From an uncultured Gemmatimonadales bacterium (GTDB lineage Bacteria > Gemmatimonadota > Gemmatimonadetes > Longimicrobiales > RSA9): a stretch of DNA of 64,000 nucleotides. The notes beneath the pieces are model-generated. The model saw only the letters and a program-made list of their open reading frames with translations. It searched no databases and was not told the DNA's origin. Location: contig CAWCUS010000004.1 in assembly GCA_963798845.1 (NCBI GenBank), positions 256,001 to 320,000 of the forward strand. The letters run 5' to 3'. The number at the start of each line of letters is the position of its first letter. Position 1 is the first letter of the stretch. The position numbers and the translations under genes were made by a program. Of the stretch, positions 2,755-55,233 are shown one piece after another.

Positions 2755-4433
2755 CGGCCGAGGAGCGACTCGGGAGCGCACTGGCCGGGGCGCTGGCCTC
2801 GCTCGGAATCGAGGGCGCGGAGGTCCAGCTGGAGCGTCCGCGCAGCCCGGAGCACGGGGACCTGGCCACGAACGTGGCGCTCACGCTGGCGGGGCGTCTG
2901 AAGCAGCCGCCGCGCCAGGTGGCGCAGCGCATCGTGGACGCGCTGGACCTGGAAGGCGCGGGCGTGGCAGGCGTCGAGATCGCGGGCCCGGGTTTCCTGA
3001 ATTTCCGCCTGAGCCGCGCGGAGGTGGCGTCGCTCCTGGAGCGGGTTCTCCGGCAGGACGAGGCCTACGGTCGAACGAATGCGGAGACGCGGCGGCGTGT
3101 GATGGTGGAGTTCGTCTCCGCCAACCCGACGGGACCGCTTCACGTGGCGCACGGCCGCGGCGCGGCGCTGGGCGATGCCATGGCGAGGCTGCTGGAGTGG
3201 ACCGGGAACGAGGCGTGGCGCGAGTTCTACATCAACGACTCCGGCGTGCAGATCGACCGGCTGGCGGCGTCGCTGGAAGCGCGCTGGCGGCAGCAGCGGG
3301 GTGAGGCGGCGGAGATCCCGGAGGGCGGCTATCACGGCGACTACCTGGTGGATCTGGCCCGTGAGGCGGAGTCGGCCATGGGCGAGCGGCTCGCGCGGTC
3401 ATCGCCAGGGGAGCGGCTGACGCTCTTCCGGGACTACGCGGTGGAGGCGCTGGAAGCGGGGCAGGCGAAGGACCTGGAGGCCTTCGGCGTCGTGTTCAAT
3501 GAATGGTACCCCGAGAGCCGGGTCTACCGTGAGGGTCGGATCGAGGAGACGCTGGCGCTTCTGCGGGAGCGGGGGCTCACCTACGAGCACGAGGGGGCCA
3601 CGTGGCTGCGAACGAGCGAGTTCGGGGACGACAAGGACCGGGTGCTGATCAAGAGCGACGGGACGTACACCTATTTCGTTCCCGACATGGCGTATCACAG
3701 GGAGAAAGCGAGGCGCGGATTCGACCACGCGGTCAACGTGTGGGGGGCGGACCACCACGGCTACGTCCCGCGCATGCAGGCGGCGCTGGCGGCCATGGGG
3801 CTGGAGGGTTTCCTGGACGTGGAGATCGTCCAGATGGTGCGCATCCTCCGGGGGGGCGTGGAAGCGAAGCTGAGCAAGCGGGCCGGTGACTTCGTCACGC
3901 TGAGGGAGCTGTTCGACGAGACGGGCACGGACGTGGCCCGTTATTTCTTCCTGATGCGGCGGGGCGACACGCAGATGGTGTTCGATCTGGACCTGGCGCT
4001 GGACCACTCGGAGAAGAACCCGGTCTACAAGGTCCAGTACGCGCACGCCCGCATGATGAGCATCTTCCGCAAGGCGGGGGTGCCGGCGGAGCCGCCCGCG
4101 GAGGCCCAGCCGCTGGCTCGGCTGGCGACGTCGGACGAGCAGGAGCTGGTGAAGCAGCTGGCGCGCTTCCCGGAGGTGGTGGCACGGGCCGCGGAGGGTC
4201 GTGCGCCCCATCTGGTGTGCGACTACCTTGAGGAGACCGCCGGCATGGCCAACTCCTGGTACCACTCGGGGAATCCCAGCCGGAACCCGGAGCTTGCGGT
4301 CCTGGTGGACGATCCGGACCTTCGGGCGGCGCGGCTGGCGCTGGCCCGCGGGATCCGGATCGTGCTGCGCAACGGTCTCGGCGTGCTGGGTCTCAACGCC
4401 CCGTCGAGGATGGAGCGGGAGGAGGAGGCATGA
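2751..4433 (+). CDS. argS: Arginine--tRNA ligase
   Basis: EFVSANPTGPLHVAHGR (HIGH-like), WGADHHGY, KLSKRAG, VQYAHAR. Confidence 0.97.
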   Translation: MTAEERLGSALAGALASLGIEGAEVQLERPRSPEHGDLATNVALTLAGRLKQPPRQVAQRIVDALDLEGAGVAGVEIAGPGFLNFRLSRAEVASLLERVLRQDEAYGRTNAETRRRVMVEFVSANPTGPLHVAHGRGAALGDAMARLLEWTGNEAWREFYINDSGVQIDRLAASLEARWRQQRGEAAEIPEGGYHGDYLVDLAREAESAMGERLARSSPGERLTLFRDYAVEALEAGQAKDLEAFGVVFNEWYPESRVYREGRIEETLALLRERGLTYEHEGATWLRTSEFGDDKDRVLIKSDGTYTYFVPDMAYHREKARRGFDHAVNVWGADHHGYVPRMQAALAAMGLEGFLDVEIVQMVRILRGGVEAKLSKRAGDFVTLRELFDETGTDVARYFFLMRRGDTQMVFDLDLALDHSEKNPVYKVQYAHARMMSIFRKAGVPAEPPAEAQPLARLATSDEQELVKQLARFPEVVARAAEGRAPHLVCDYLEETAGMANSWYHSGNPSRNPELAVLVDDPDLRAARLALARGIRIVLRNGLGVLGLNAPSRMEREEEA

Positions 4434-5356: not shown

Positions 5357-6389
5357 GCAGCTGAGCTACCGCGACGCCGGCGTCGACCGCGCGGCGGCCG
5401 ATCGGGCGAAGGACCGCATCGGCCGGCTGGTGGCGTCCACGGAGGTGGAGGGCGTCCTGTCCAAGGTCGGCTCCTTCGGCGGACTGTTCCGGGTCCCGCA
5501 GGACGGGAAGGCCCCGATCCTGGTGGCGAGCGCCGACGGCGTCGGGACGAAGCTGAAGGTGGCCATGCGCGCGGGACGTCACGACACCGTGGGGCACGAC
5601 CTGGTCAACCACTGCGTCGACGACATCCTCGTGGAGGGCGCGCGGCCCCTCTTCTTCCTCGACTACATCGGCATGGGCGTGCTGGACGAAAGCGTCGTGG
5701 AAGCCCTCGTTTCCGGGCTGGCGGCCGGGTGCCGGGAAAACGGCTGCGCGCTGCTGGGTGGGGAGACCGCGGAGATGCCGGACTTCTACGCGCCCGGCGA
5801 GTACGATCTGGCCGGGTTCATCGTCGGGCTGGTGGAAGAGGCCGGACGGCCGTCGAAAGCGCGCGTGCGTGACGGCGATGCGCTGGTGGCGCTGGCGTCG
5901 AGCGGATTCCACACGAACGGCTACTCCCTGCTGCGGAAGCTGCTCTTCGACCGCCTGGGGCTCGGCCTCGAGGATGCCTTCCCCGGGGTGGACGAGCCGG
6001 TAGGCGACGTCCTCCTCCGCGTACACCGCAGCTATCTCTCCGCCGTGGCGCCGCTGCTCGCGGACGGCGGCGTCCACGCCCTCGCCCATATCACGGGCGG
6101 CGGCATCCCGGGCAACCTGAACCGATCGCTCCCCGACGGGCTCCAGGCGAAAGTCGACCGGTCGACGTGGCGGGTGCCGCCCGAGTTCGACGGGGTGATG
6201 CGCACGGGCGGGATTCCGGAAGACGAGATGTACCGGACCTTCAACATGGGCGTCGGAATGATCCTCGTGGTGGCGCCGGACAGCGCGGGCGGGACGGTGT
6301 CCGCGCTGAACGCCGGCGGCGAGGACGCATGGGTGGCGGGGTCGGTGGGGCCACGCCCGGACGGCGCGGCCGCCGTGGCTCTCCTCTAG
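5349..6389 (+). CDS. purM: Phosphoribosylformylglycinamidine cyclo-ligase (AIR synthetase)
   Basis: YRDAGVD, DGVGTKL, GGETAEMP, SSGFHTNGYSL, HITGGG, TFNMGVG. Confidence 0.97.
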   Translation: MAEQLSYRDAGVDRAAADRAKDRIGRLVASTEVEGVLSKVGSFGGLFRVPQDGKAPILVASADGVGTKLKVAMRAGRHDTVGHDLVNHCVDDILVEGARPLFFLDYIGMGVLDESVVEALVSGLAAGCRENGCALLGGETAEMPDFYAPGEYDLAGFIVGLVEEAGRPSKARVRDGDALVALASSGFHTNGYSLLRKLLFDRLGLGLEDAFPGVDEPVGDVLLRVHRSYLSAVAPLLADGGVHALAHITGGGIPGNLNRSLPDGLQAKVDRSTWRVPPEFDGVMRTGGIPEDEMYRTFNMGVGMILVVAPDSAGGTVSALNAGGEDAWVAGSVGPRPDGAAAVALL

Positions 6390-25978: not shown

Positions 25979-26772
25979 GGGGTCGCATCCTGGAGCTGCT
26001 GGCGCGCGTCGCCGCGGGAGAGGAGACGCCATCTTCGGCGCTGGAGCGTCTCTCGCTCCTGCCGATCGAGGAAGTCGACGGCGGTCCGGGCGACGGATCC
26101 GAGGTCCACCCCTTCGCCCGCCTCGACCACAACCGGGCGCTCCGGCAGGGGCAGCCGGAAGTGGTGTTCGGACCGGGGAAGACGATGCCCCAGCTCCTGG
26201 AGATCGCGCACAGGTTCGTGGATCGAGGCGACGGGCTGCTGGTCACGCGCCTCGAGGAGCCCGGCCTCCGTGCCCTCGCCGGAGCATTCCCCGAAGGCCG
26301 CGCCAGCGCCATCGCCCGCACGTTCCACGTCCCCACCGCCAACCCCACGAAGCCGCGCACCAGGGGGCCCGTCCTGGTGGTCACCGGCGGGACGGGCGAC
26401 ATCCCGGTGGCCGAGGAGGCCGCGGTCACCGCCGCCGCGCTGGGCAATCCGGTGGACCGGCTGTACGACGTCGGCGTCGCCGGGATCCACCGCGTCCTCT
26501 CTCACCTGGAGGTGCTGCGCCGGGCGGCGGTCGTGATCGTGGTGGCCGGTATGGAAGGCGCGCTGCCCTCGGTGGTGGGCGGCCTCGTCGCCAGCCCGGT
26601 GATCGCCGTCCCCACCAGCGTGGGCTACGGCGCCTCCTTCGGGGGTCTCGCGCCGCTCCTCGGCATGCTCAACAGCTGCGCCGCGGGTATCACCGTGGTC
26701 AACATCGACAACGGCTTCGGCGCCGCGTGCGCCGCCAGCCGCATCAACCTGCTGCCAGAGCGCGAGGCGTGA
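25975..26772 (+). CDS. larB: Nickel-pincer cofactor biosynthesis protein LarB
   Basis: ARLDHNRALRQGQPEVVF, DVGVAGIHR, AGMEGALPS, VPTSVGYG, VNIDNGFGA. Confidence 0.93.
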   Translation: MRGRILELLARVAAGEETPSSALERLSLLPIEEVDGGPGDGSEVHPFARLDHNRALRQGQPEVVFGPGKTMPQLLEIAHRFVDRGDGLLVTRLEEPGLRALAGAFPEGRASAIARTFHVPTANPTKPRTRGPVLVVTGGTGDIPVAEEAAVTAAALGNPVDRLYDVGVAGIHRVLSHLEVLRRAAVVIVVAGMEGALPSVVGGLVASPVIAVPTSVGYGASFGGLAPLLGMLNSCAAGITVVNIDNGFGAACAASRINLLPEREA

Positions 26773-28505
26773 GCAGGCGCCGACCGCCGCGCGCCGCCGG
26801 CCGAACGCTCGCCCTGGCGCTCCGCATCGCAATCGTGGCCGCCGTCGTTGCCGTGGTCATGGGCCTGGGCGGGTGGGGCTCGCTCGCGTACCTCGCCACA
26901 GGCTTCGCAGGCGGCGTGCTCCTGGCTCCGCGCATCCGACGGTGGTCGGGTGTGGAGGCCGCGCGGGCCGACCCGACCGGAAGGCCGGAAGAGGGGACCG
27001 CGAGCGGCACGGGATGCGGCGCGCCGGAAGCGCGGACGGCAATGACCGACGCCCTTTCACTCGTGGCCACCCTGACAGGAGCGAGTCGCGTGGTGGTCTG
27101 GCGGCTCGAACCGTCGGCCGGGACGCTCGATCCCATCGCGGCCACCGGGGTCGCGCCCGCCTCCCGGCCGGCGGCCGCCGACCCGCTCACGTGGTGCATC
27201 GCGAACGCCCAGCCGCTGCGCGTCGACAGGCGCCCGGCCTGGGCGGAGCAGGACGTGGTGGCAGTCCCGGCGGACGCGGCGAGATCGCTCGCGGTCACCT
27301 TCGAGGGCGCCATGCCGGCCGGAGCGGGAAAGGCGGAGCCCGGGGACCCGGCGGACCGGGGTGGAGAGGTCGCGTCGGGCCGGGAGACCGCGGCCGTGGG
27401 GGTCCCGCGGGAGCTGGTGGTCGCGGCGCGGCTGTTGGGGCGGATGGCGGCCGCGGACGCCCGCGAGGCCGCGGTGGCCGCGGACCTCGAGCGCGTCCAG
27501 CTGGTGCTCGGCCTGATGCAGCGCATCCCGGGCGACGACGCGCCGGGCGGGTTCGCGGAAGCCCTCGCCCGCGTCGCCCAGCGGGTCCTCGAAGCCCGCG
27601 TCGCCGTGATCGCCTCGTGGAACGAGGATGCACAGGCGGGGGAGGTGCTGGCGTCCTCGTCGCCCGGCGAAGGCCCGCCGCCGGAGATGCCGTTCCGCGC
27701 CGACACGGGGCTGCTCGGACTTGCCGCCCGCTCGGGCGCCGCTATGCAGCGGGAAGGCGAGGGCGCGGCGGGGGCGACACTGGCGGGGGAGTCCGCACCG
27801 GCGCACCCCAGCTGCGTCGTCGCGGTGCCGCTGGCGTTCGCTGGACACGTGCAGGCCGTCGTGGGGGCTTGGTCCGATGCGGCTCCGAGCCGGACCGGGG
27901 TCCAGCTGCTCCAGGCCCTCGGCCCCGTCCTCACCGTGCAGCTGCACCAGGCCGCGGACCTGGACCGCTTCCGCCTCCGCGCCACCGAGGATCCCCTCAC
28001 CCGGCTGCCGAATCGCGGCGCGCTGGAGGAGCGCCTCGAACTCGAGCGCCAGCGCTTCTTCCGCTACCGCCGTCCGCTCGCCGCCCTGATCCTCGACCTC
28101 GACCACTTCAAAGGCGTCAACGACACCCACGGCCACGCCGCCGGGGACGCCGTGCTGCGCGCCGTCGCAGACCGGCTCCGGGCCACGATACGGGATGTCG
28201 ATTTCCCCGCCCGCGTGGGCGGCGAGGAGCTCGTCGTCCTCCTGCCGGAAACCATGCTCGGACACGCGGGCGAGGTGGCCGAGCGCGTCCGCGCCGCCGT
28301 CGCCCGGACGCCAGTCTGGTTCGAAGGGACAGCGATCGCCGTGACGGCGTCCGTCGGCGTGAGCGCGTGCCCCGAATGCGTGGACACGCCCGACGCGCTG
28401 CTGGACAGCGCAGACCACGCGCTCTACGTGTCCAAGGCCGGCGGCCGGAACCGCGTCACCCTCGCCGGTGCGGGTGCGGCGGCGGGGCAGGGGCCGGGGG
28501 GTTGA
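26769..28505 (+). CDS. Membrane-anchored GAF-like + GGDEF diguanylate cyclase
   Basis: N-terminal TMs; DPLTRLPNR, DLDHFKGVNDTHGH, RDVD I-site, GGEEL. Confidence 0.88.
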   Translation: MSRRRPPRAAGRTLALALRIAIVAAVVAVVMGLGGWGSLAYLATGFAGGVLLAPRIRRWSGVEAARADPTGRPEEGTASGTGCGAPEARTAMTDALSLVATLTGASRVVVWRLEPSAGTLDPIAATGVAPASRPAAADPLTWCIANAQPLRVDRRPAWAEQDVVAVPADAARSLAVTFEGAMPAGAGKAEPGDPADRGGEVASGRETAAVGVPRELVVAARLLGRMAAADAREAAVAADLERVQLVLGLMQRIPGDDAPGGFAEALARVAQRVLEARVAVIASWNEDAQAGEVLASSSPGEGPPPEMPFRADTGLLGLAARSGAAMQREGEGAAGATLAGESAPAHPSCVVAVPLAFAGHVQAVVGAWSDAAPSRTGVQLLQALGPVLTVQLHQAADLDRFRLRATEDPLTRLPNRGALEERLELERQRFFRYRRPLAALILDLDHFKGVNDTHGHAAGDAVLRAVADRLRATIRDVDFPARVGGEELVVLLPETMLGHAGEVAERVRAAVARTPVWFEGTAIAVTASVGVSACPECVDTPDALLDSADHALYVSKAGGRNRVTLAGAGAAAGQGPGG

Positions 28506-28530
28506 ATCCCTGGAGACCCTTCGCTATACT
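28502..28530 (+). promoter_or_regulatory. sigma70 promoter of ssrA
   Basis: TTGAAT-N17-TATACT, 10 nt upstream of the tmRNA 5' end. Confidence 0.8.
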
Positions 28531-28540
28531 TTCGGTGTCC

Positions 28541-28904
28541 GGGGCCGACACGGATTCGACGTGCTTAGTGAATTCGGCGTTGCGTGCCGAGGTTTCCGTC
28601 ACCTCGTAAAACAGCGGAAAAACACCACAAGTGCCAACGATAACCTGGCGCTGGCTGCGTAAGTAAACCTTACGTGCCCGTCTGGAGCAGGGACCCGGCC
28701 CGAGGTCCAGCTTTCAGGCGACGATTGAATCGGGCTGGCTATCCGGCGAGGCCACCGCGCCGGGAGCGAGAACTCAGAGTGGCTGGCTCGTGAACGGCCG
28801 TCCGTCGTGCCAATGATCGAGTGAGAAAACAACAAGGCGGACTACGCACGTAGAGGCGCTGAGGGATCTATTCGCGGACGCGGGTTCGACTCCCGCCGGC
28901 TCCA
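28541..28904 (+). ncRNA. ssrA: tmRNA; tag ANDNLALAA* at 28633-28662; CCA not encoded
   Basis: 5' GGGGCCG..GGATTCGAC; 3' GACGCGGGTTCGACTCCCGCCGGCTCCA; G3:U acceptor pair; tag ending LAA. Confidence 0.97.
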
Positions 28905-29410
28905 TGCACAGGGCGCGGTCGGGCAACCTGTCAGAGGCCTTCGTACATCTCTGCGGGGCATGGGCGGGAGTCGGCCTCCGCTTGCCGTTACGTGCGCCCG
29001 CTTCGCTCTACGGATCATCTGGCGCTCCGGTTCGACTCCCGCCGGCTCCATGCACAGGCCTCTGATCGGGCAACCGGTCAGAGGCCGTCGTACATCTGTG
29101 CAGGGCATGGGCGGGAGTCGGCCTCCGCTTGCCGTTACGTGCGCCCGCTTCGCTCTCGAGATCATCGGGCGCTCCGGCTCGACTCCGCACACGGGCGGGC
29201 GCCGACACGCCGGAGGGCATCGGCCCGGACCTCGATGCATGGGCATGACGGGGCGGGAGTCGGCCTCTTGCTGGGTAGGCCGCGCTCCGGTTCCTACCCC
29301 GCCGGTTCATCGCGCGAGCACGGATCGGGCTCGACCCGCGATGGCGGAGGGTCGGCGGCGGGAGCTTTGGGTGCGACCGGGGGCTACGGCTCGTGGGGGG
29401 AGTCGGGCTC
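28883..29410 (+). repeat. Tandem array of tmRNA-3'-end-containing palindromic units (starts 28883, 29029, 29176, 29289)
   Basis: Units 1 and 2 share a 30-nt identity (28883-28912 / 29029-29058) and a 54-nt identity (28956-29009 / 29103-29156); units 3 and 4 are degenerate. Confidence 0.9.
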
Positions 29411-29436
29411 GGCCTCGGAGAACGGGCCCTGCTGTC

Positions 29437-29789
29437 CGCGGCGCCATCGTCGCCCTCTCATCCGCCGCCGCCCGCCGGCCGTCGGAGCGCTCCACCGCGC
29501 CCTACACCGCGGCCAGGGCGGGCATCGAGCTCCTCACGAAGTCGGCCGCCATTCAGGCGGGGCCGTACAGCGTGCGCGTCAACTGCATCGCGCCGGGGAC
29601 CATCTCGACGGAGCGGACGAGGACCAGATCCCCGCGGAAATGAAAGCATGGCTGGCCGACTCCCATCCGATCCGGCGGCTCGGAACGCCGGAGGACGTGG
29701 CACGTGCCGCGCTCTGGCTGGTTTCCGACGACGCGTCCTGGGTGACCGGCGTGGTTCTGGACGTGGCGGGCGGTGCCGTACTGGTGTGA
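29437..29789 (+). pseudogene. SDR oxidoreductase C-terminal remnant
   Basis: GAIVALSS..YTAAR..VRVNCIAPG, frameshift near 29620, then PIRRLGTPEDVA..WVTG..VAGG; no N-terminal Rossmann fold. Confidence 0.85.
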
Positions 29790-53463: not shown

Positions 53464-55233
53464 TCATGTCCCGCATGTGCCGGTCACGACGTTGGCGGGG
53501 GCATCTTCGATAACCGGAGTCGTGCGCCCGGCCGGCACGTGGACCCGAACGTACGCGACCCCGACGTTGCCGGCCGCATCCTCCGCCGCGAGCTGGATCA
53601 CGTAAACGCGTCCGTTGCCGCCCTGGACCCGCTCCGCCCTTACGTCGACCGACCGGCACTGAGGTGCGATCACGATGTCGTTGATCGTCTTCCCATCGGA
53701 GCCATCGTTGTCGACCTCGTCACTGCTCACGCTGACGATCCTGACATCCTCCGGCGCCAGGTCCGGATCCTGGTCGTTCACGGCCGTGACGAGATCCTCG
53801 ATGGATAGCGTCACATACTTGTGATTCGGCGGCCAGAGCATGATCGGCCCGTCGGTCACGATGATCTCCGGTGGCGTCACATTGTCCGAGATGACCTCAA
53901 TGTAGACGTAGACCGGACTCGAGTGGACACCGTTGTCGTCGGCCAGCGAATACTGGAACTGGTCCGTTCCGGTGAAGCCCGCGGCCGGTTCGTAGACGAA
54001 GTGTCCGCTCGTCACGATCGTCGTCACCGTCCCGTGCGTCGGCGCATTGAAATTCGAGACGATGATGGCATCGCCGTCCGGATCCAGGTCGTTCGCCATC
54101 AGCCCGGGCGCATCCACGGTGAGGGTCGCGCCTTCGAGCGTGCCGTAGTGGTCCGTGACACCGATGGGAGCGCGGTTCGGATCCGGAAGCACCTCGATCG
54201 TCACGGTCCCCAGGTCCGAGGTATTGCCGTCGCTGTCGGTCAGCGAATACTGGAACTGATCCGTTCCGGTGAAGCCGGGGTCCGGTACGTAGACGAAGTG
54301 CCCGCTCGTCACGATCGTCGTAATCGTCCCGTTCGTCGGCGCGAGATAATTCGACACGATGAAGGTGCTGCCATCCGGGTCCAGGTCGTTGGCCATGAGG
54401 CCCGGCGCAGCGATGTCCAGCGTGACCCCTTCCGTCGTGGCGAAGGCGTCCTCGATCGCGATCGGCGCCGAGCCGCCCGTCGCCAGCACATCGATGTGGA
54501 CCGTGACCGGACTCGAGAGGACGCCATTGTCGTCGGCCAGCGAATACTGGAACTGGTCCGTTCCCGTGAAGCCCGCGGCCGGTTCGTAGACGAAGTGTCC
54601 GCTCGTCACGATCGTCGTCACCGTCCCGTGCGTCGGCGCGAGGAAATTCGAGACGATGATGGCGTCGCCGTCAACATCCAGGTCGTTCGCCATCAGCCCG
54701 GGCGCATCCACGGTGAGGGTCGCGCCTTCGAGCGTGCCGTAGTGGTCCGTGACACCAATGGGAGCGCGGTTAGGATCCGGCAGCACCTGGATCGTCACGG
54801 TCGCCGGGTCCGAGGTATTGCCGTCGCTGTCGGTCAGCGAATACTGGAACTGATCCGTTCCGGTGAAGCCCGGGTCCGGTACGTAGACGAAGTGCCCGCT
54901 CGTCACGATCGTCGTCACCGTCCCGTTCGTCGGCGCGAGATAATTCGACACGATGAAGGTGCTGCCATCCGGGTCCAGGTCGTTGGCCATGAGGCCCGGC
55001 GCATCAATGTCGAGCGTGACCCCTTCCGCCGTGGCGTAGACGTCCTCGATCGCGATCGGCGCACCGGCCACCGCGGCGAGAGGCACGAGCAGCAGCCGGG
55101 TTTCCTGTGGCGCGTCCGCCGACTCCCGATCCGGGGGAGCCAGAGGCTGGTCACATGCCAGGATTCCCAGGACGATGGTCGCAAGGGGAGGGAAGACGCG
55201 GATCGGCCGGGATGCGGGACGTTTGTGGGACAT
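53464..55233 (-). CDS. Lipoprotein with four Big_9/tandem-95 Ig-like repeats and a LWPPNHK C-terminal domain
   Basis: ILAC lipobox; 4x AP.A..D..GLMANDLD.DG..FVY.P..GFTGTDQFQY; LWPPNHK..RAER..GNGRVY. Confidence 0.9.
   Translation of the reverse strand: MSHKRPASRPIRVFPPLATIVLGILACDQPLAPPDRESADAPQETRLLLVPLAAVAGAPIAIEDVYATAEGVTLDIDAPGLMANDLDPDGSTFIVSNYLAPTNGTVTTIVTSGHFVYVPDPGFTGTDQFQYSLTDSDGNTSDPATVTIQVLPDPNRAPIGVTDHYGTLEGATLTVDAPGLMANDLDVDGDAIIVSNFLAPTHGTVTTIVTSGHFVYEPAAGFTGTDQFQYSLADDNGVLSSPVTVHIDVLATGGSAPIAIEDAFATTEGVTLDIAAPGLMANDLDPDGSTFIVSNYLAPTNGTITTIVTSGHFVYVPDPGFTGTDQFQYSLTDSDGNTSDLGTVTIEVLPDPNRAPIGVTDHYGTLEGATLTVDAPGLMANDLDPDGDAIIVSNFNAPTHGTVTTIVTSGHFVYEPAAGFTGTDQFQYSLADDNGVHSSPVYVYIEVISDNVTPPEIIVTDGPIMLWPPNHKYVTLSIEDLVTAVNDQDPDLAPEDVRIVSVSSDEVDNDGSDGKTINDIVIAPQCRSVDVRAERVQGGNGRVYVIQLAAEDAAGNVGVAYVRVHVPAGRTTPVIEDAPANVVTGTCGT
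53890..55065 (-). repeat. 594-bp intragenic tandem duplication (A-B-A'-B')
   Basis: Matching segments offset by 594 nt (54327/54921, 54157/54751). Confidence 0.9.

What the first reader, a model, noticed from the sequence alone, without database searches (positions are those of the whole stretch)
28883..29410. tmRNA-anchored array of units that regenerate the ssrA 3' end
Seen: the last 22 nt of tmRNA plus 8 nt of flank (GGTTCGACTCCCGCCGGCTCCATGCACAGG) recur exactly 146 nt later. Degenerate versions follow at 29176 and 29289. Units 1 and 2 share a further 54-nt identical block, and conservation decays with distance from ssrA. Known: tDNA 3' ends are integrase att sites, and tandem repeats containing a tRNA 3' fragment exist (E. 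coli tyrT). Inference: a polar array that grows at the ssrA end, made of about 146-nt non-autonomous site-specific mini-elements or stacked integration scars. No cognate recombinase is in the window, so it would act in trans. This is the best candidate here for an undescribed system.
Basis: partly seen in the sequence, partly recalled or inferred. Interest (0 to 1): 0.8.

Follow-up and report, generated by a model that had tools for sequence, protein, structure and literature searches.

The report
Empty insertion modules stacked behind tmRNA
Behind the tmRNA gene of this Gemmatimonadota bacterium sit two intact and two decayed copies of a gene-less 146-base module that repeats the gene's last bases; related bacteria have gene-carrying versions at the same site with no recombinase nearby.

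Summary
ssrA (28541-28904) is followed by two about 146-nt units that are 135 of 147 identical. They share an exact 30-nt repeat of the ssrA end and a 54-nt identical block. Two decayed units follow.

The array is not a one-off. The same module lies directly behind ssrA in three other genera (G013, G036, G005). It occurs six times in one relative that has 17 copies of the ssrA end, and it occurs in a Longimicrobiales MAG. 19 of 73 family genomes hold at least two copies of the 22-nt ssrA end. Those copies bound segments with cargo genes.

No tyrosine recombinase lies within 277 kb of any copy in 15 genomes. Serine recombinases are rare and unlinked. The only strand-transfer gene inside the arrays is an IS91-family transposase, found in five relatives and absent from this genome.

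Best reading (0.55): these are cargo-less members of an ssrA-anchored, recombinase-less cassette family. They were inserted site-specifically by an enzyme acting in trans, and unequal crossover then remodelled them.

The closest published case is the Dehalococcoides ssrA islands. This scan has already noted similar arrays in other phyla. I class it as a new variant of a known kind. The enzyme is unidentified.

The parts
28502..28530 (+). promoter-like site upstream of ssrA (TTGAAT, 17 nt, TATACT)
   Evidence: Consensus scan: 1 site found against 0.0 expected in shuffles. This is a consensus match only.
28541..28904 (+). tmRNA gene (ssrA), tag peptide ANDNLALAA
   Evidence: ARAGORN; Rfam RF00023, 170.5 bits, model positions 1-374.
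28883..28912 (+). core copy 1: the last 22 nt of ssrA (T-stem/T-loop to the discriminator A) plus 8 nt of flank
   Evidence: Exact 30-nt repeat, family D5.
28883..29028 (+). unit 1 (146 nt): core, chimeric and degenerate stem-loop (about 28911-28940), inverted partial core (28962-28978), linker (28979-29028)
   Evidence: The stem-loop does not fold better than shuffles (z -0.27). Its 5' arm matches the G013/G036/G005 type and its 3' arm matches unit 2.
28962..28978 (+). inverted partial copy of the ssrA end (GGGCGGGAGTCGGCCTC), copy 1
   Evidence: family D3 and inverted pair I1.
29029..29058 (+). core copy 2 (exact 30-nt repeat). The 5' strand of the T-stem is missing here, so this is not a second tmRNA end.
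   Evidence: Rfam finds no second tmRNA.
29029..29175 (+). unit 2 (147 nt): core, perfect 13-bp stem-loop (29057-29086), inverted partial core (29109-29125), linker (29126-29175)
   Evidence: 29051-29106 folds at -33.4 kcal/mol (z -5.6). 29029-29132 folds as one long imperfect palindrome at -67.2 kcal/mol (z -6.3, 0 of 200 shuffles as good).
29176..29288 (+). unit 3 (decayed, about 113 nt): degenerate core GGCTCGACTCCGCACACGGGCG, intact inverted-core motif at 29251-29267, remnant GCGCTCCGG
   Evidence: The same degenerate core and following sequence occur in G013, 83% identical over 29029-29437.
29289..29437 (+). unit 4 (most decayed): degenerate core GGTTCCTACCCCGCCGGTTCAT, inverted-core-like motif at 29394-29410. 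Homology with G013 ends at 29437.
   Evidence: families D3 and D4.
29440..29789 (+). truncated, frame-broken remnant of a short-chain dehydrogenase gene that abuts the array
   Evidence: Pfam adh_short_C2 matches only profile positions 188-234 of 236, at nt 29634-29774. The upstream part is my reading.

Best explanation
The array is a stack of cargo-less members of a family of recombinase-less insertion modules ('cassettes') that target the 3' end of ssrA in Gemmatimonadota.

Each unit of about 146 nt has four parts:
- a replacement ssrA end, running from the T-loop to the discriminator base;
- a stem-loop that can serve as the ssrA terminator;
- an inverted partial copy of the ssrA end;
- a conserved linker of about 50 nt that ends ...GGCGCTCC-GGN, directly before the next TCGACTCC...

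In relatives the same left and right ends enclose 0.7-8 kb of ordinary cargo genes.

Inferred mechanism: an enzyme supplied in trans joins such a module to ssrA at or just after the T-loop GTTC. The gene stays intact because the module brings its own copy of the ssrA end. Older modules are pushed away from ssrA and decay. Unequal crossover between neighbouring units then changes copy number and makes chimeras such as unit 1.

Shown here: the anatomy, its conservation across genera, the cargo-bearing versions, the sharp common boundary, and the absence of linked tyrosine and serine recombinases.

Inferred, not shown: that insertion was site-specific rather than by homologous recombination, the direction of growth, and the enzyme. 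This genome has no candidate near the array, so its array is probably a fossil.
For: 1. Recurrence. A second ssrA-end copy lies 101-191 nt behind ssrA in 6 of 24 ssrA loci examined, this genome included. Units homologous to the window's lie directly behind ssrA in G013, G036 and G005, six times in G095, and in a Longimicrobiales MAG (L064).

2. Spread of the core. 19 of 73 family genomes hold at least 2 copies of the 22-nt core with at most 1 mismatch. The reversed control pattern gave 0 hits. G095 has 17 copies, G026 has 6, G077 has 5, and G013, G032 and G081 have 4 each.

3. Cargo. Segments between cores carry cargo and no recombinase: TonB receptors, a HepT/nucleotidyltransferase pair, an RND efflux pump, penicillin amidase, a molybdopterin oxidoreductase and HicB/HEPN.

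4. Common boundary. In at least five unrelated upstream-flank families, identity with ssrA starts at the same place, (N)G|TTCGAC.

5. Mosaic cassettes. G001 (same genus) has 2.1-kb and 5.5-kb cargo segments that each end in the inverted-core plus linker part of the unit. The first 611 nt of its first cassette are 92.8% identical to a cassette at a different array position in G081, starting at the core.

6. Constraint.
- 8 of 12 stem-loop pairs show compensatory changes across 12 units.
- The variable third base of the next core covaries with the inverted core (UA 6, GC 3, AU 1, GU 1).
- The ssrA-plus-units block is 80-83% identical between this genome and G013, while no alignment was reported upstream of ssrA.

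7. Precedent. Tandem ssrA islands bounded by 20-bp ssrA-end repeats, some without integration genes, with insertion in the T-loop, are described in PMC3146451 (passages).
Against: - No enzyme is identified.
- All 61 PF00589 matches in 15 genomes lie at least 277 kb from any core or on other contigs.
- Serine recombinases occur in only 9 of 73 genomes, and never near a core.
- No phage or viral attP with this core was found: all 18 viral hits are phage tmRNA or tRNA-Ala genes.
- No circular junction, strain polymorphism or read evidence could be obtained.
- A 146-bp double-stranded circle is a poor recombination substrate.
- The extra unit in this genome relative to G013 can be made by one unequal crossover, without any new insertion.
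- Most genomes compared are MAGs, in which active mobile elements often fail to assemble or bin.
Confidence: 0.55

Rival explanations
1. This is a purely local duplication. An old integration scar behind ssrA was inherited vertically, and in this lineage one unit was duplicated by unequal crossover or replication slippage. The units are not and never were mobile on their own.
For: - G013 has the same arrangement with one unit fewer, and units 3 and 4 are shared at 83%.
- Unit 1's stem-loop is a chimera of the G013-type 5' arm and unit 2's 3' arm, which is the signature of crossover between tandem units.
- The unit occurs nowhere else in this genome.
Against: - It does not explain the six diverged copies at different cassette junctions in G095.
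- It does not explain the copy inside an array in a Longimicrobiales MAG.
- It does not explain the cargo segments that end in the same linker in G001 and G013.
- It does not explain the common boundary in unrelated flank families.
- The junction reads GGT at 29029, whereas a crossover with the degenerate core would give GGC.
Confidence: 0.2
2. The modules are products of an IS91-family (HUH, Y2) rolling-circle transposase. In this reading the linker's imperfect palindrome followed by G-N-T-C acts as a terIS-like termination end, GTTC in the ssrA T-loop is the target tetranucleotide, and read-through (one-ended transposition) captures neighbouring genes as cargo.
For: An IS91-family transposase (Pfam Y2_Tnp plus Zn_Tnp_IS91) is the only strand-transfer gene found inside the arrays.
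- G032 has four full copies and one partial copy, all within 40 kb downstream of ssrA.
- G033 has three remnants 3-12 kb downstream of ssrA.
- G013, G026 and G095 also carry remnants.
- In all of these the gene is antisense to ssrA.
- Homology between the G032 and G013:C2 elements ends exactly at the last base of a core copy.

Published IS91-family features fit (PMC13181058, passages read): target and terIS tetranucleotide GTTC, a subterminal imperfect palindrome at terIS, single-stranded circular intermediates, no target duplication, and frequent read-through.
Against: - No Y2 transposase is found in this genome, in G001, or in the array-rich G081, G026 and G077; one search's tblastn does find degenerate remnants in the G026 array. 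G095 has only a fragment.
- The left ends of the modules (ssrA end plus stem-loop) do not resemble the element's own oriIS end.
- The five G032 copies are not flanked by GTTC at that end.
- Related copies sit away from any core in G010:C4.
- The elements may simply accumulate in a permissive hotspot.
Confidence: 0.15
3. The block is a cis-acting part of the ssrA transcription unit, for example back-up terminators or a precursor 3' trailer that pairs with the tmRNA end. On this view it is kept by selection, and no mobile element is involved.
For: - The stem-loop is conserved by compensatory changes.
- Unit 1's stem-loop is broken, so the first strong stem-loop after ssrA is unit 2's.
- The ssrA-plus-units block is more conserved between genera than its surroundings.
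Against: - The same modules occur far from ssrA, behind cargo genes.
- 17 of 24 related ssrA loci show no second ssrA-end copy within the downstream DNA held; L026 had none and L031 only 91 nt.
- None of the stem-loops has a T tract.
Confidence: 0.07
4. The array is an assembly artefact of a collapsed or expanded repeat.
For: None was found. It could not be excluded with reads.
Against: - The units differ at 12 of 147 positions.
- Independent assemblies of other genera show the same architecture.
- A 177-nt contig in an unrelated sediment metagenome spans one unit from core to core (table 8, record 4).
Confidence: 0.03

Closest known systems
Dehalococcoides ssrA-specific genomic islands (ssrA-GIs; McMurdie et al. 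2011, PMC3146451; passages read)
   Same: - Tandem elements lie downstream of the single ssrA gene.
- Each is bounded by a direct repeat of about 20 bp of the ssrA 3' end.
- The insertion point is mapped to the T-loop.
- Extra conserved nucleotides lie just upstream of each repeat.
- Some islands lack integration genes and are discussed there as cis-mobilizable elements.
   Different: - Sixteen of the Dehalococcoides islands carry a serine-recombinase module (DsiB/DsiA). Here no serine recombinase is in this genome, and none is near any core in 73 genomes.
- The units here are 146 nt and gene-less.
- They contain an inverted copy of the ssrA end.
- The phylum is different.
Islander-type genomic islands in tRNA/tmRNA genes with tyrosine integrases (PMC4383910, abstract start seen in the listing; Williams's sublocation classes are recalled, not read)
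   Same: The target gene is regenerated, and a displaced 3' fragment marks the far end. The identity block starts in the T-arm.
   Different: The defining integrase gene is absent from every segment examined. The elements are 100 to 1000 times smaller.
Integron cassette arrays (IntI with attI and attC)
   Same: - A polar array of promoter-less, recombinase-less modules sits at one anchor.
- Each module ends in an imperfect palindrome next to a G-T-T.
- The enzyme acts in trans.
- Integron integrases exist in this family; there is a frameshifted one in this genome.
   Different: - The anchor is ssrA, not attI beside intI.
- intI lies on another contig and has its own ordinary attC-like array (GCMTAAC...).
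- The unit's palindrome does not fit the R''/R' consensus RYYYAAC/GTTRRRY; the consensus is recalled, and the fit is 6 of 7.
- 20 nt, rather than 7 nt, are shared between modules.
- G095, the genome richest in modules, shows no intI.
IS91-family rolling-circle elements (PMC13181058, passages read)
   Same: A GTTC tetranucleotide lies at the junction, with an imperfect palindrome next to it. There is no target duplication, neighbouring DNA is captured, and family members sit inside the arrays of five relatives.
   Different: No transposase is found in this genome. The module's left end is unlike the element's oriIS. See the second rival explanation.
E. coli tyrT 178-bp repeats that carry the last bases of tRNA-Tyr
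   Same: Short tandem units behind an RNA gene, each repeating its 3' end.
   Different: To my recollection that is a single-locus curiosity, with no cargo-bearing relatives in other genera.

Membership tests
tDNA/ssrA genomic island (tyrosine integrase type) | Direct repeat of the target gene's 3' fragment at the element's far end, with the target gene regenerated intact | tested here: met
   Exact 22+8 nt repeat. ssrA is full length at 170.5 bits.
tDNA/ssrA genomic island (tyrosine integrase type) | Integrase gene inside the element, next to an att site | tested here: not met
   The units are 146 nt and cannot hold a gene. None of the 61 PF00589 matches in 15 genomes lies within 277 kb of a core. 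There are no Pfam integrase hits in the cargo segments.
Dehalococcoides-type ssrA-GI | Tandem array downstream of ssrA bounded by repeats of about 20 bp that start in the T-loop | tested here: met
   Identity starts at (N)G|TTCGAC.
Dehalococcoides-type ssrA-GI | DsiB/DsiA serine-recombinase integration module | tested here: not met
   PF00239 gave 0 matches in this genome. It gave 14 matches in 9 of 73 genomes, none near a core.
Cis-mobilizable element (att-flanked, no recombination genes) | Flanked by att-like repeats and devoid of recombination or transfer genes | tested here: met
Cis-mobilizable element (att-flanked, no recombination genes) | Mobilised together with an adjacent autonomous integrative element (accretion) | not testable with these tools
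   No autonomous element with this att site was found in 73 genomes, in viral contigs or in metagenome contigs.
Integron cassette | Array adjacent to intI and attI | tested here: not met
   The intI pseudogene is on contig C2. The window is on C4.
Integron cassette | attC site: imperfect palindrome with the R''/R' boxes RYYYAAC and GTTRRRY (consensus recalled) | tested here: inconclusive
   An imperfect palindrome is present, with one covarying pair. The boxes fit 6 of 7, and the interior of about 55 nt is unpaired. The fold of 28955-29055 is not better than shuffles (z -1.35).
IS91-family element or derivative | HUH Y2 transposase available in the genome | tested here: not met
   PF04986 gave 0 matches in this genome and 22 of 73 genomes with matches.
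IS91-family element or derivative | terIS-like end: subterminal imperfect palindrome next to a GTTC-type tetranucleotide, with no target duplication | tested here: inconclusive
   Units end ...GG(T/C/A)TC, preceded by the inverted-core/linker palindrome. The fit to the published description is by reading only.
Functional second tmRNA or tRNA | Complete acceptor and T arms | tested here: not met
   The 5' T-stem strand is replaced by CTCC at 29025-29028. Rfam finds no second gene. ARAGORN's second 'tmRNA*' call overlaps the array and has no support.

The most novel reading that the evidence does not exclude
Gemmatimonadota, and perhaps the other phyla where this scan saw integrase-less ssrA arrays, may have a gene-capture platform anchored on ssrA that works without a cassette-borne or adjacent recombinase.

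In this reading the module folds as single-stranded DNA into the long core / stem-loop / inverted-core hairpin, which mimics the duplex ssrA end. A host enzyme then joins it to ssrA. Candidates are one of the three Xer-like recombinases present in every genome examined, or a Y2 HUH transposase. This would resemble the way CTX phage exploits XerCD at dif (recalled).

The 146-nt unit would then be the minimal mobile module, that is, an empty cassette.
Probability: 0.2. Interest if true: 0.8.

Novelty: new variant of a known kind. Interest (0 to 1): 0.5.

Why it matters
- ssrA is the most used integration site in bacteria, but the elements known there bring their own integrase. A conserved, gene-less 146-nt module, with cargo-carrying relatives and no linked recombinase in 73 genomes, would mean that accessory genes in this little-studied soil phylum are shuffled at ssrA by an enzyme acting in trans.
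- The empty module marks the minimal cis-acting sequence, which makes the enzyme question testable.
- Automated island finders that require an integrase will miss these arrays.
- If instead the array is only a duplicated scar, it is a small footnote.

Tried and rejected
1. Reads. No public run holds this organism; the best holder has 0.21 of the sampled words. Laying X1, X2, X3 and X5 gave only contigs of relatives.
- So there is no test of copy number, circular junctions or assembly.
- The RNA contigs cover ssrA and none covers the units, but they come from other organisms.

2. Viral attP. All 18 viral contigs with the core hold complete phage tmRNA or tRNA-Ala genes, not an attP with a foreign upstream flank.

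3. Metagenome contigs. The first pattern found 0 matches. The looser one found 15 chance matches inside coding sequence, none followed by CTCCA.

4. Genome-contig scan.
- 9 of 12 loci are Gemmatimonadota MAG contigs, 6 of them from the one MAG behind G095. One is a 'Spirochaetia' MAG contig with the same core / terminator / inverted-core / core architecture.
- The Blastococcus and Sphingomonas hits are chance matches in other sequence.

5. The tRNA-Ser call by ARAGORN on a G095 core is a poor cloverleaf and I discarded it.

6. A small conserved ORF pair next to cores in four genera has no Pfam family, even at E up to 1. I did not pursue it.

7. A duplex search for an inverted core upstream of the other flank families (G081 type, G077 type) gave only weak, background-like pairings. 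The inverted core is therefore specific to this module family.

8. One search (PF00589 in 61 genomes) listed only 150 of 346 matches. I used it only as a lead.

9. Paper searches found nothing on such arrays in Gemmatimonadota and nothing on the tyrT repeats.

Full report
**What is there**

The window holds a full-length tmRNA gene at 28541-28904 on the + strand (ARAGORN; Rfam RF00023, 170.5 bits). Upstream lie a dihydrouridine synthase gene and a GGDEF gene.

- The last 22 nt of ssrA plus 8 nt of flank recur exactly 146 nt later, at 28883-28912 and 29029-29058.
- A 54-nt block is identical at 28956-29009 and 29103-29156.
- The two units are 135 of 147 identical. TRF reports period 147, 2.1 copies and 92% matches.
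- Two decayed units follow, starting at 29176 and 29289.
- A profile of the unit scores 116.6 and 119.4 bits on units 1 and 2 and almost nothing further on.
- The unit occurs nowhere else in the 4.26-Mb assembly.
- Only one other place in the window has any repeated 20-mer.

**Anatomy of a unit**

1. The core GGTTCGACTCCCGCCGGCTCCA. This is the ssrA end from the last two G of the 5' T-stem strand, through the T-loop, to the discriminator A. In the second copy the rest of the 5' T-stem strand is replaced by CTCC, so it is not a second tmRNA end.
2. A stem-loop. In unit 2 it is perfect (13 bp; -33.4 kcal/mol; z -5.6). In unit 1 it is a chimera and folds no better than shuffles. Its 5' arm is the type found in G013, G036 and G005, and its 3' arm is unit 2's type.
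3. An inverted partial copy of the core, GGGCGGGAGTCGGCC. As a result 29029-29132 folds as one long imperfect palindrome (-67.2 kcal/mol; z -6.3).
4. A linker of about 50 nt with the conserved motifs CCTCCGCT, CGCTTCGCTC and GGCGCTCC, ending GGN directly before the next TCGAC.

**Relatives**

The record titles name the relatives as Gemmatimonadota.

- Among 24 ssrA loci of the family and order, 6 (this genome included) have a second ssrA-end copy 101-191 nt downstream.
- The window's module is directly behind ssrA in G013, G005 and G036. G013 and G005 helped build the profile; G036 did not and scored 67.3 bits. There are weak matches in G006 and G012.
- It also occurs six times in G095, and in a Longimicrobiales MAG inside an array.
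- A contig binned as Spirochaetia shows the same order (core, terminator, inverted core, core) with its own ssrA-end sequence.

In 73 genomes of the family, 62 have the 22-nt core and 19 have two or more copies. The reversed control pattern gave none. G095 has 17 copies.

The denominators include the unpublished genomes G016, G017, G020, G038 and G085. No positive example of a unit or an array rests on them. Three of the 22 genomes with a Y2 transposase match are unpublished ones.

**Cargo versions**

Between successive cores, relatives carry ordinary accessory genes: TonB-dependent receptors, a HepT/nucleotidyltransferase pair, an RND efflux system, penicillin amidase, a molybdopterin oxidoreductase and HicB/HEPN.

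- In the sister species G001, ssrA is followed by a 2.1-kb and a 5.5-kb segment. Each ends in the inverted-core plus linker part of the unit, and synteny with the window resumes at the MacB-like gene.
- The first 611 nt of G001's first segment are 92.8% identical to a segment at another array position in G081. The identity starts at the core.
- The modules are therefore mosaic and shared between genera.
- In at least five unrelated upstream-flank families, identity to ssrA starts at the same place, (N)G|TTCGAC.

**Signs of constraint**

Across 12 units, 8 of 12 stem-loop pairs show compensatory changes. The only variable base of the downstream core (its third base: T, C or A) covaries with its partner in the inverted core (UA 6, GC 3, AU 1, GU 1). 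The whole structure exceeds all 500 shuffles and all slid controls. Those sequences are related and the alignment is small, so this is suggestive rather than proof.

The ssrA-plus-units block is 80-83% identical between this genome and G013. No alignment was reported upstream of ssrA between the two.

**The missing enzyme**

- In 15 genomes for which every PF00589 match was listed (61 matches), none is within 277 kb of a core or on a core-bearing short contig.
- Most of those genomes show two strong Xer-like matches, and most have a third tyrosine recombinase. In several genomes the third is an integron integrase (TIGR02249).
- This genome has a frameshifted integron integrase on contig C2, with its own ordinary attC-like array.
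- Serine recombinases occur in 9 of 73 genomes, never near a core, and not at all in this genome.
- The only strand-transfer gene found inside the arrays is an IS91-family Y2 transposase. G032 has four full copies and one partial copy within 40 kb downstream of ssrA. G033 has three remnants. G013, G026 and G095 also have remnants. All are antisense to ssrA.
- Homology between two of these elements ends exactly at the last base of a core copy.
- Published IS91-family properties fit parts of the picture: GTTC as target and terIS tetranucleotide, a subterminal palindrome, single-stranded circles and read-through (PMC13181058, passages).
- Against this, the module's left end is unlike the element's oriIS, the G032 copies lack GTTC at that end, this genome has no such gene, and copies also sit away from cores.

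**Reading**

The most economical account is that the window shows the cargo-less form of an ssrA-targeted, recombinase-less module family. The modules were inserted by an enzyme acting in trans, older copies were displaced distally, and unequal crossover between units followed, which explains unit 1's chimera.

- A purely local duplication explains this genome's extra unit. It does not explain the family-wide pattern.
- A cis-acting role in tmRNA expression may coexist. It cannot explain modules that lie far from ssrA.
- An assembly artefact is unlikely but could not be tested with reads.

**Comparison with what is known**

The closest published system is the set of Dehalococcoides ssrA islands: tandem, bounded by 20-bp ssrA-end repeats, inserted in the T-loop, and some without integration genes (PMC3146451, passages). 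Those have a serine-recombinase module, and here none exists.

Earlier notes of this scan (AI notes, not independent evidence) report integrase-less ssrA cassette arrays in Patescibacteria, Chlamydiae, SAR11 and TMED127, in some cases attributed to large serine recombinases. That prompted the family-wide serine-recombinase scan, which was negative.

My paper searches found no description for Gemmatimonadota.

I class the finding as a new variant of a known kind. New here are the phylum, the gene-less 146-nt unit with its inverted ssrA-end copy, and the complete lack of a linked recombinase. The enzyme, and whether the array is still active, remain open.

Noticed in passing
G000 contig C2, about 1320-2270 (locus L054), outside the window: This genome has an integron integrase (TIGR02249) split over two reading frames: profile positions 1-170 in one frame and 169-315 in another. 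It is followed by attC-like repeats (GCMTAACG...CTGAAGCTGAC) at 3464, 4165, 4888 and 5786. The sister species G001 has two copies that score above the family cut-off.
   Followed up: partly
window 53933-55062: This is the only other repeated DNA in the window: a near-exact tandem duplication with period 594 nt and a 297-nt sub-period. It is probably a repeated protein domain. I did not examine it.
   Followed up: no
window 29440-29789: A truncated, frame-broken short-chain dehydrogenase remnant abuts the array. Only the last 47 positions or so of the Pfam profile match. This fits a cassette boundary or a deletion scar.
   Followed up: partly
G095 (L043 7996-8049 and similar sites at 5422, 15749, 23303; L045; L046): Many cargo segments in G095 end in a 50-60-nt sequence (GGAATACGATAGG...GCGGACGCG plus core). 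Rfam aligns it as a miniature tmRNA tRNA-like domain, with an acceptor stem that includes G3-U70 plus a T-arm (31 bits, below the gathering score). It is followed by its own stem-loop. The copies differ from one another. It might be a small RNA gene or a structured end.
   Followed up: partly
L032 14886-15409 (G001); L033 7592-8090 (G013); L047 4830-5466 (G081); L043 8454-8681 (G095): A pair of small ORFs with no Pfam family sits just after a core plus stem-loop and reads towards ssrA in four genera. It may be a toxin-antitoxin pair or an accessory factor.
   Followed up: partly
G032:C1:1812000-1858000 (L036-L038): Four full copies and one partial copy of a 2.2-kb IS91-family element lie within 40 kb downstream of ssrA. 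Three of them share 250-400 nt of read-through that includes an ssrA-end copy and the 3' end of an oxidoreductase gene. This looks like one-ended transposition.
   Followed up: yes
window 26756-28496 compared with G001: The sister species lacks about 1.7 kb directly upstream of ssrA that in the window encodes most of the GGDEF protein. More distant genera keep the part just upstream of ssrA (about 27.9-28.5 kb).
   Followed up: no
L050 14466-14734 and L051 10888-11024 (G001, near its intI copies): Long runs of a 9-nt tandem repeat (GGGCGTCGC and CCCGTGGAG, up to about 21 copies) lie inside the integron cassette region.
   Followed up: no
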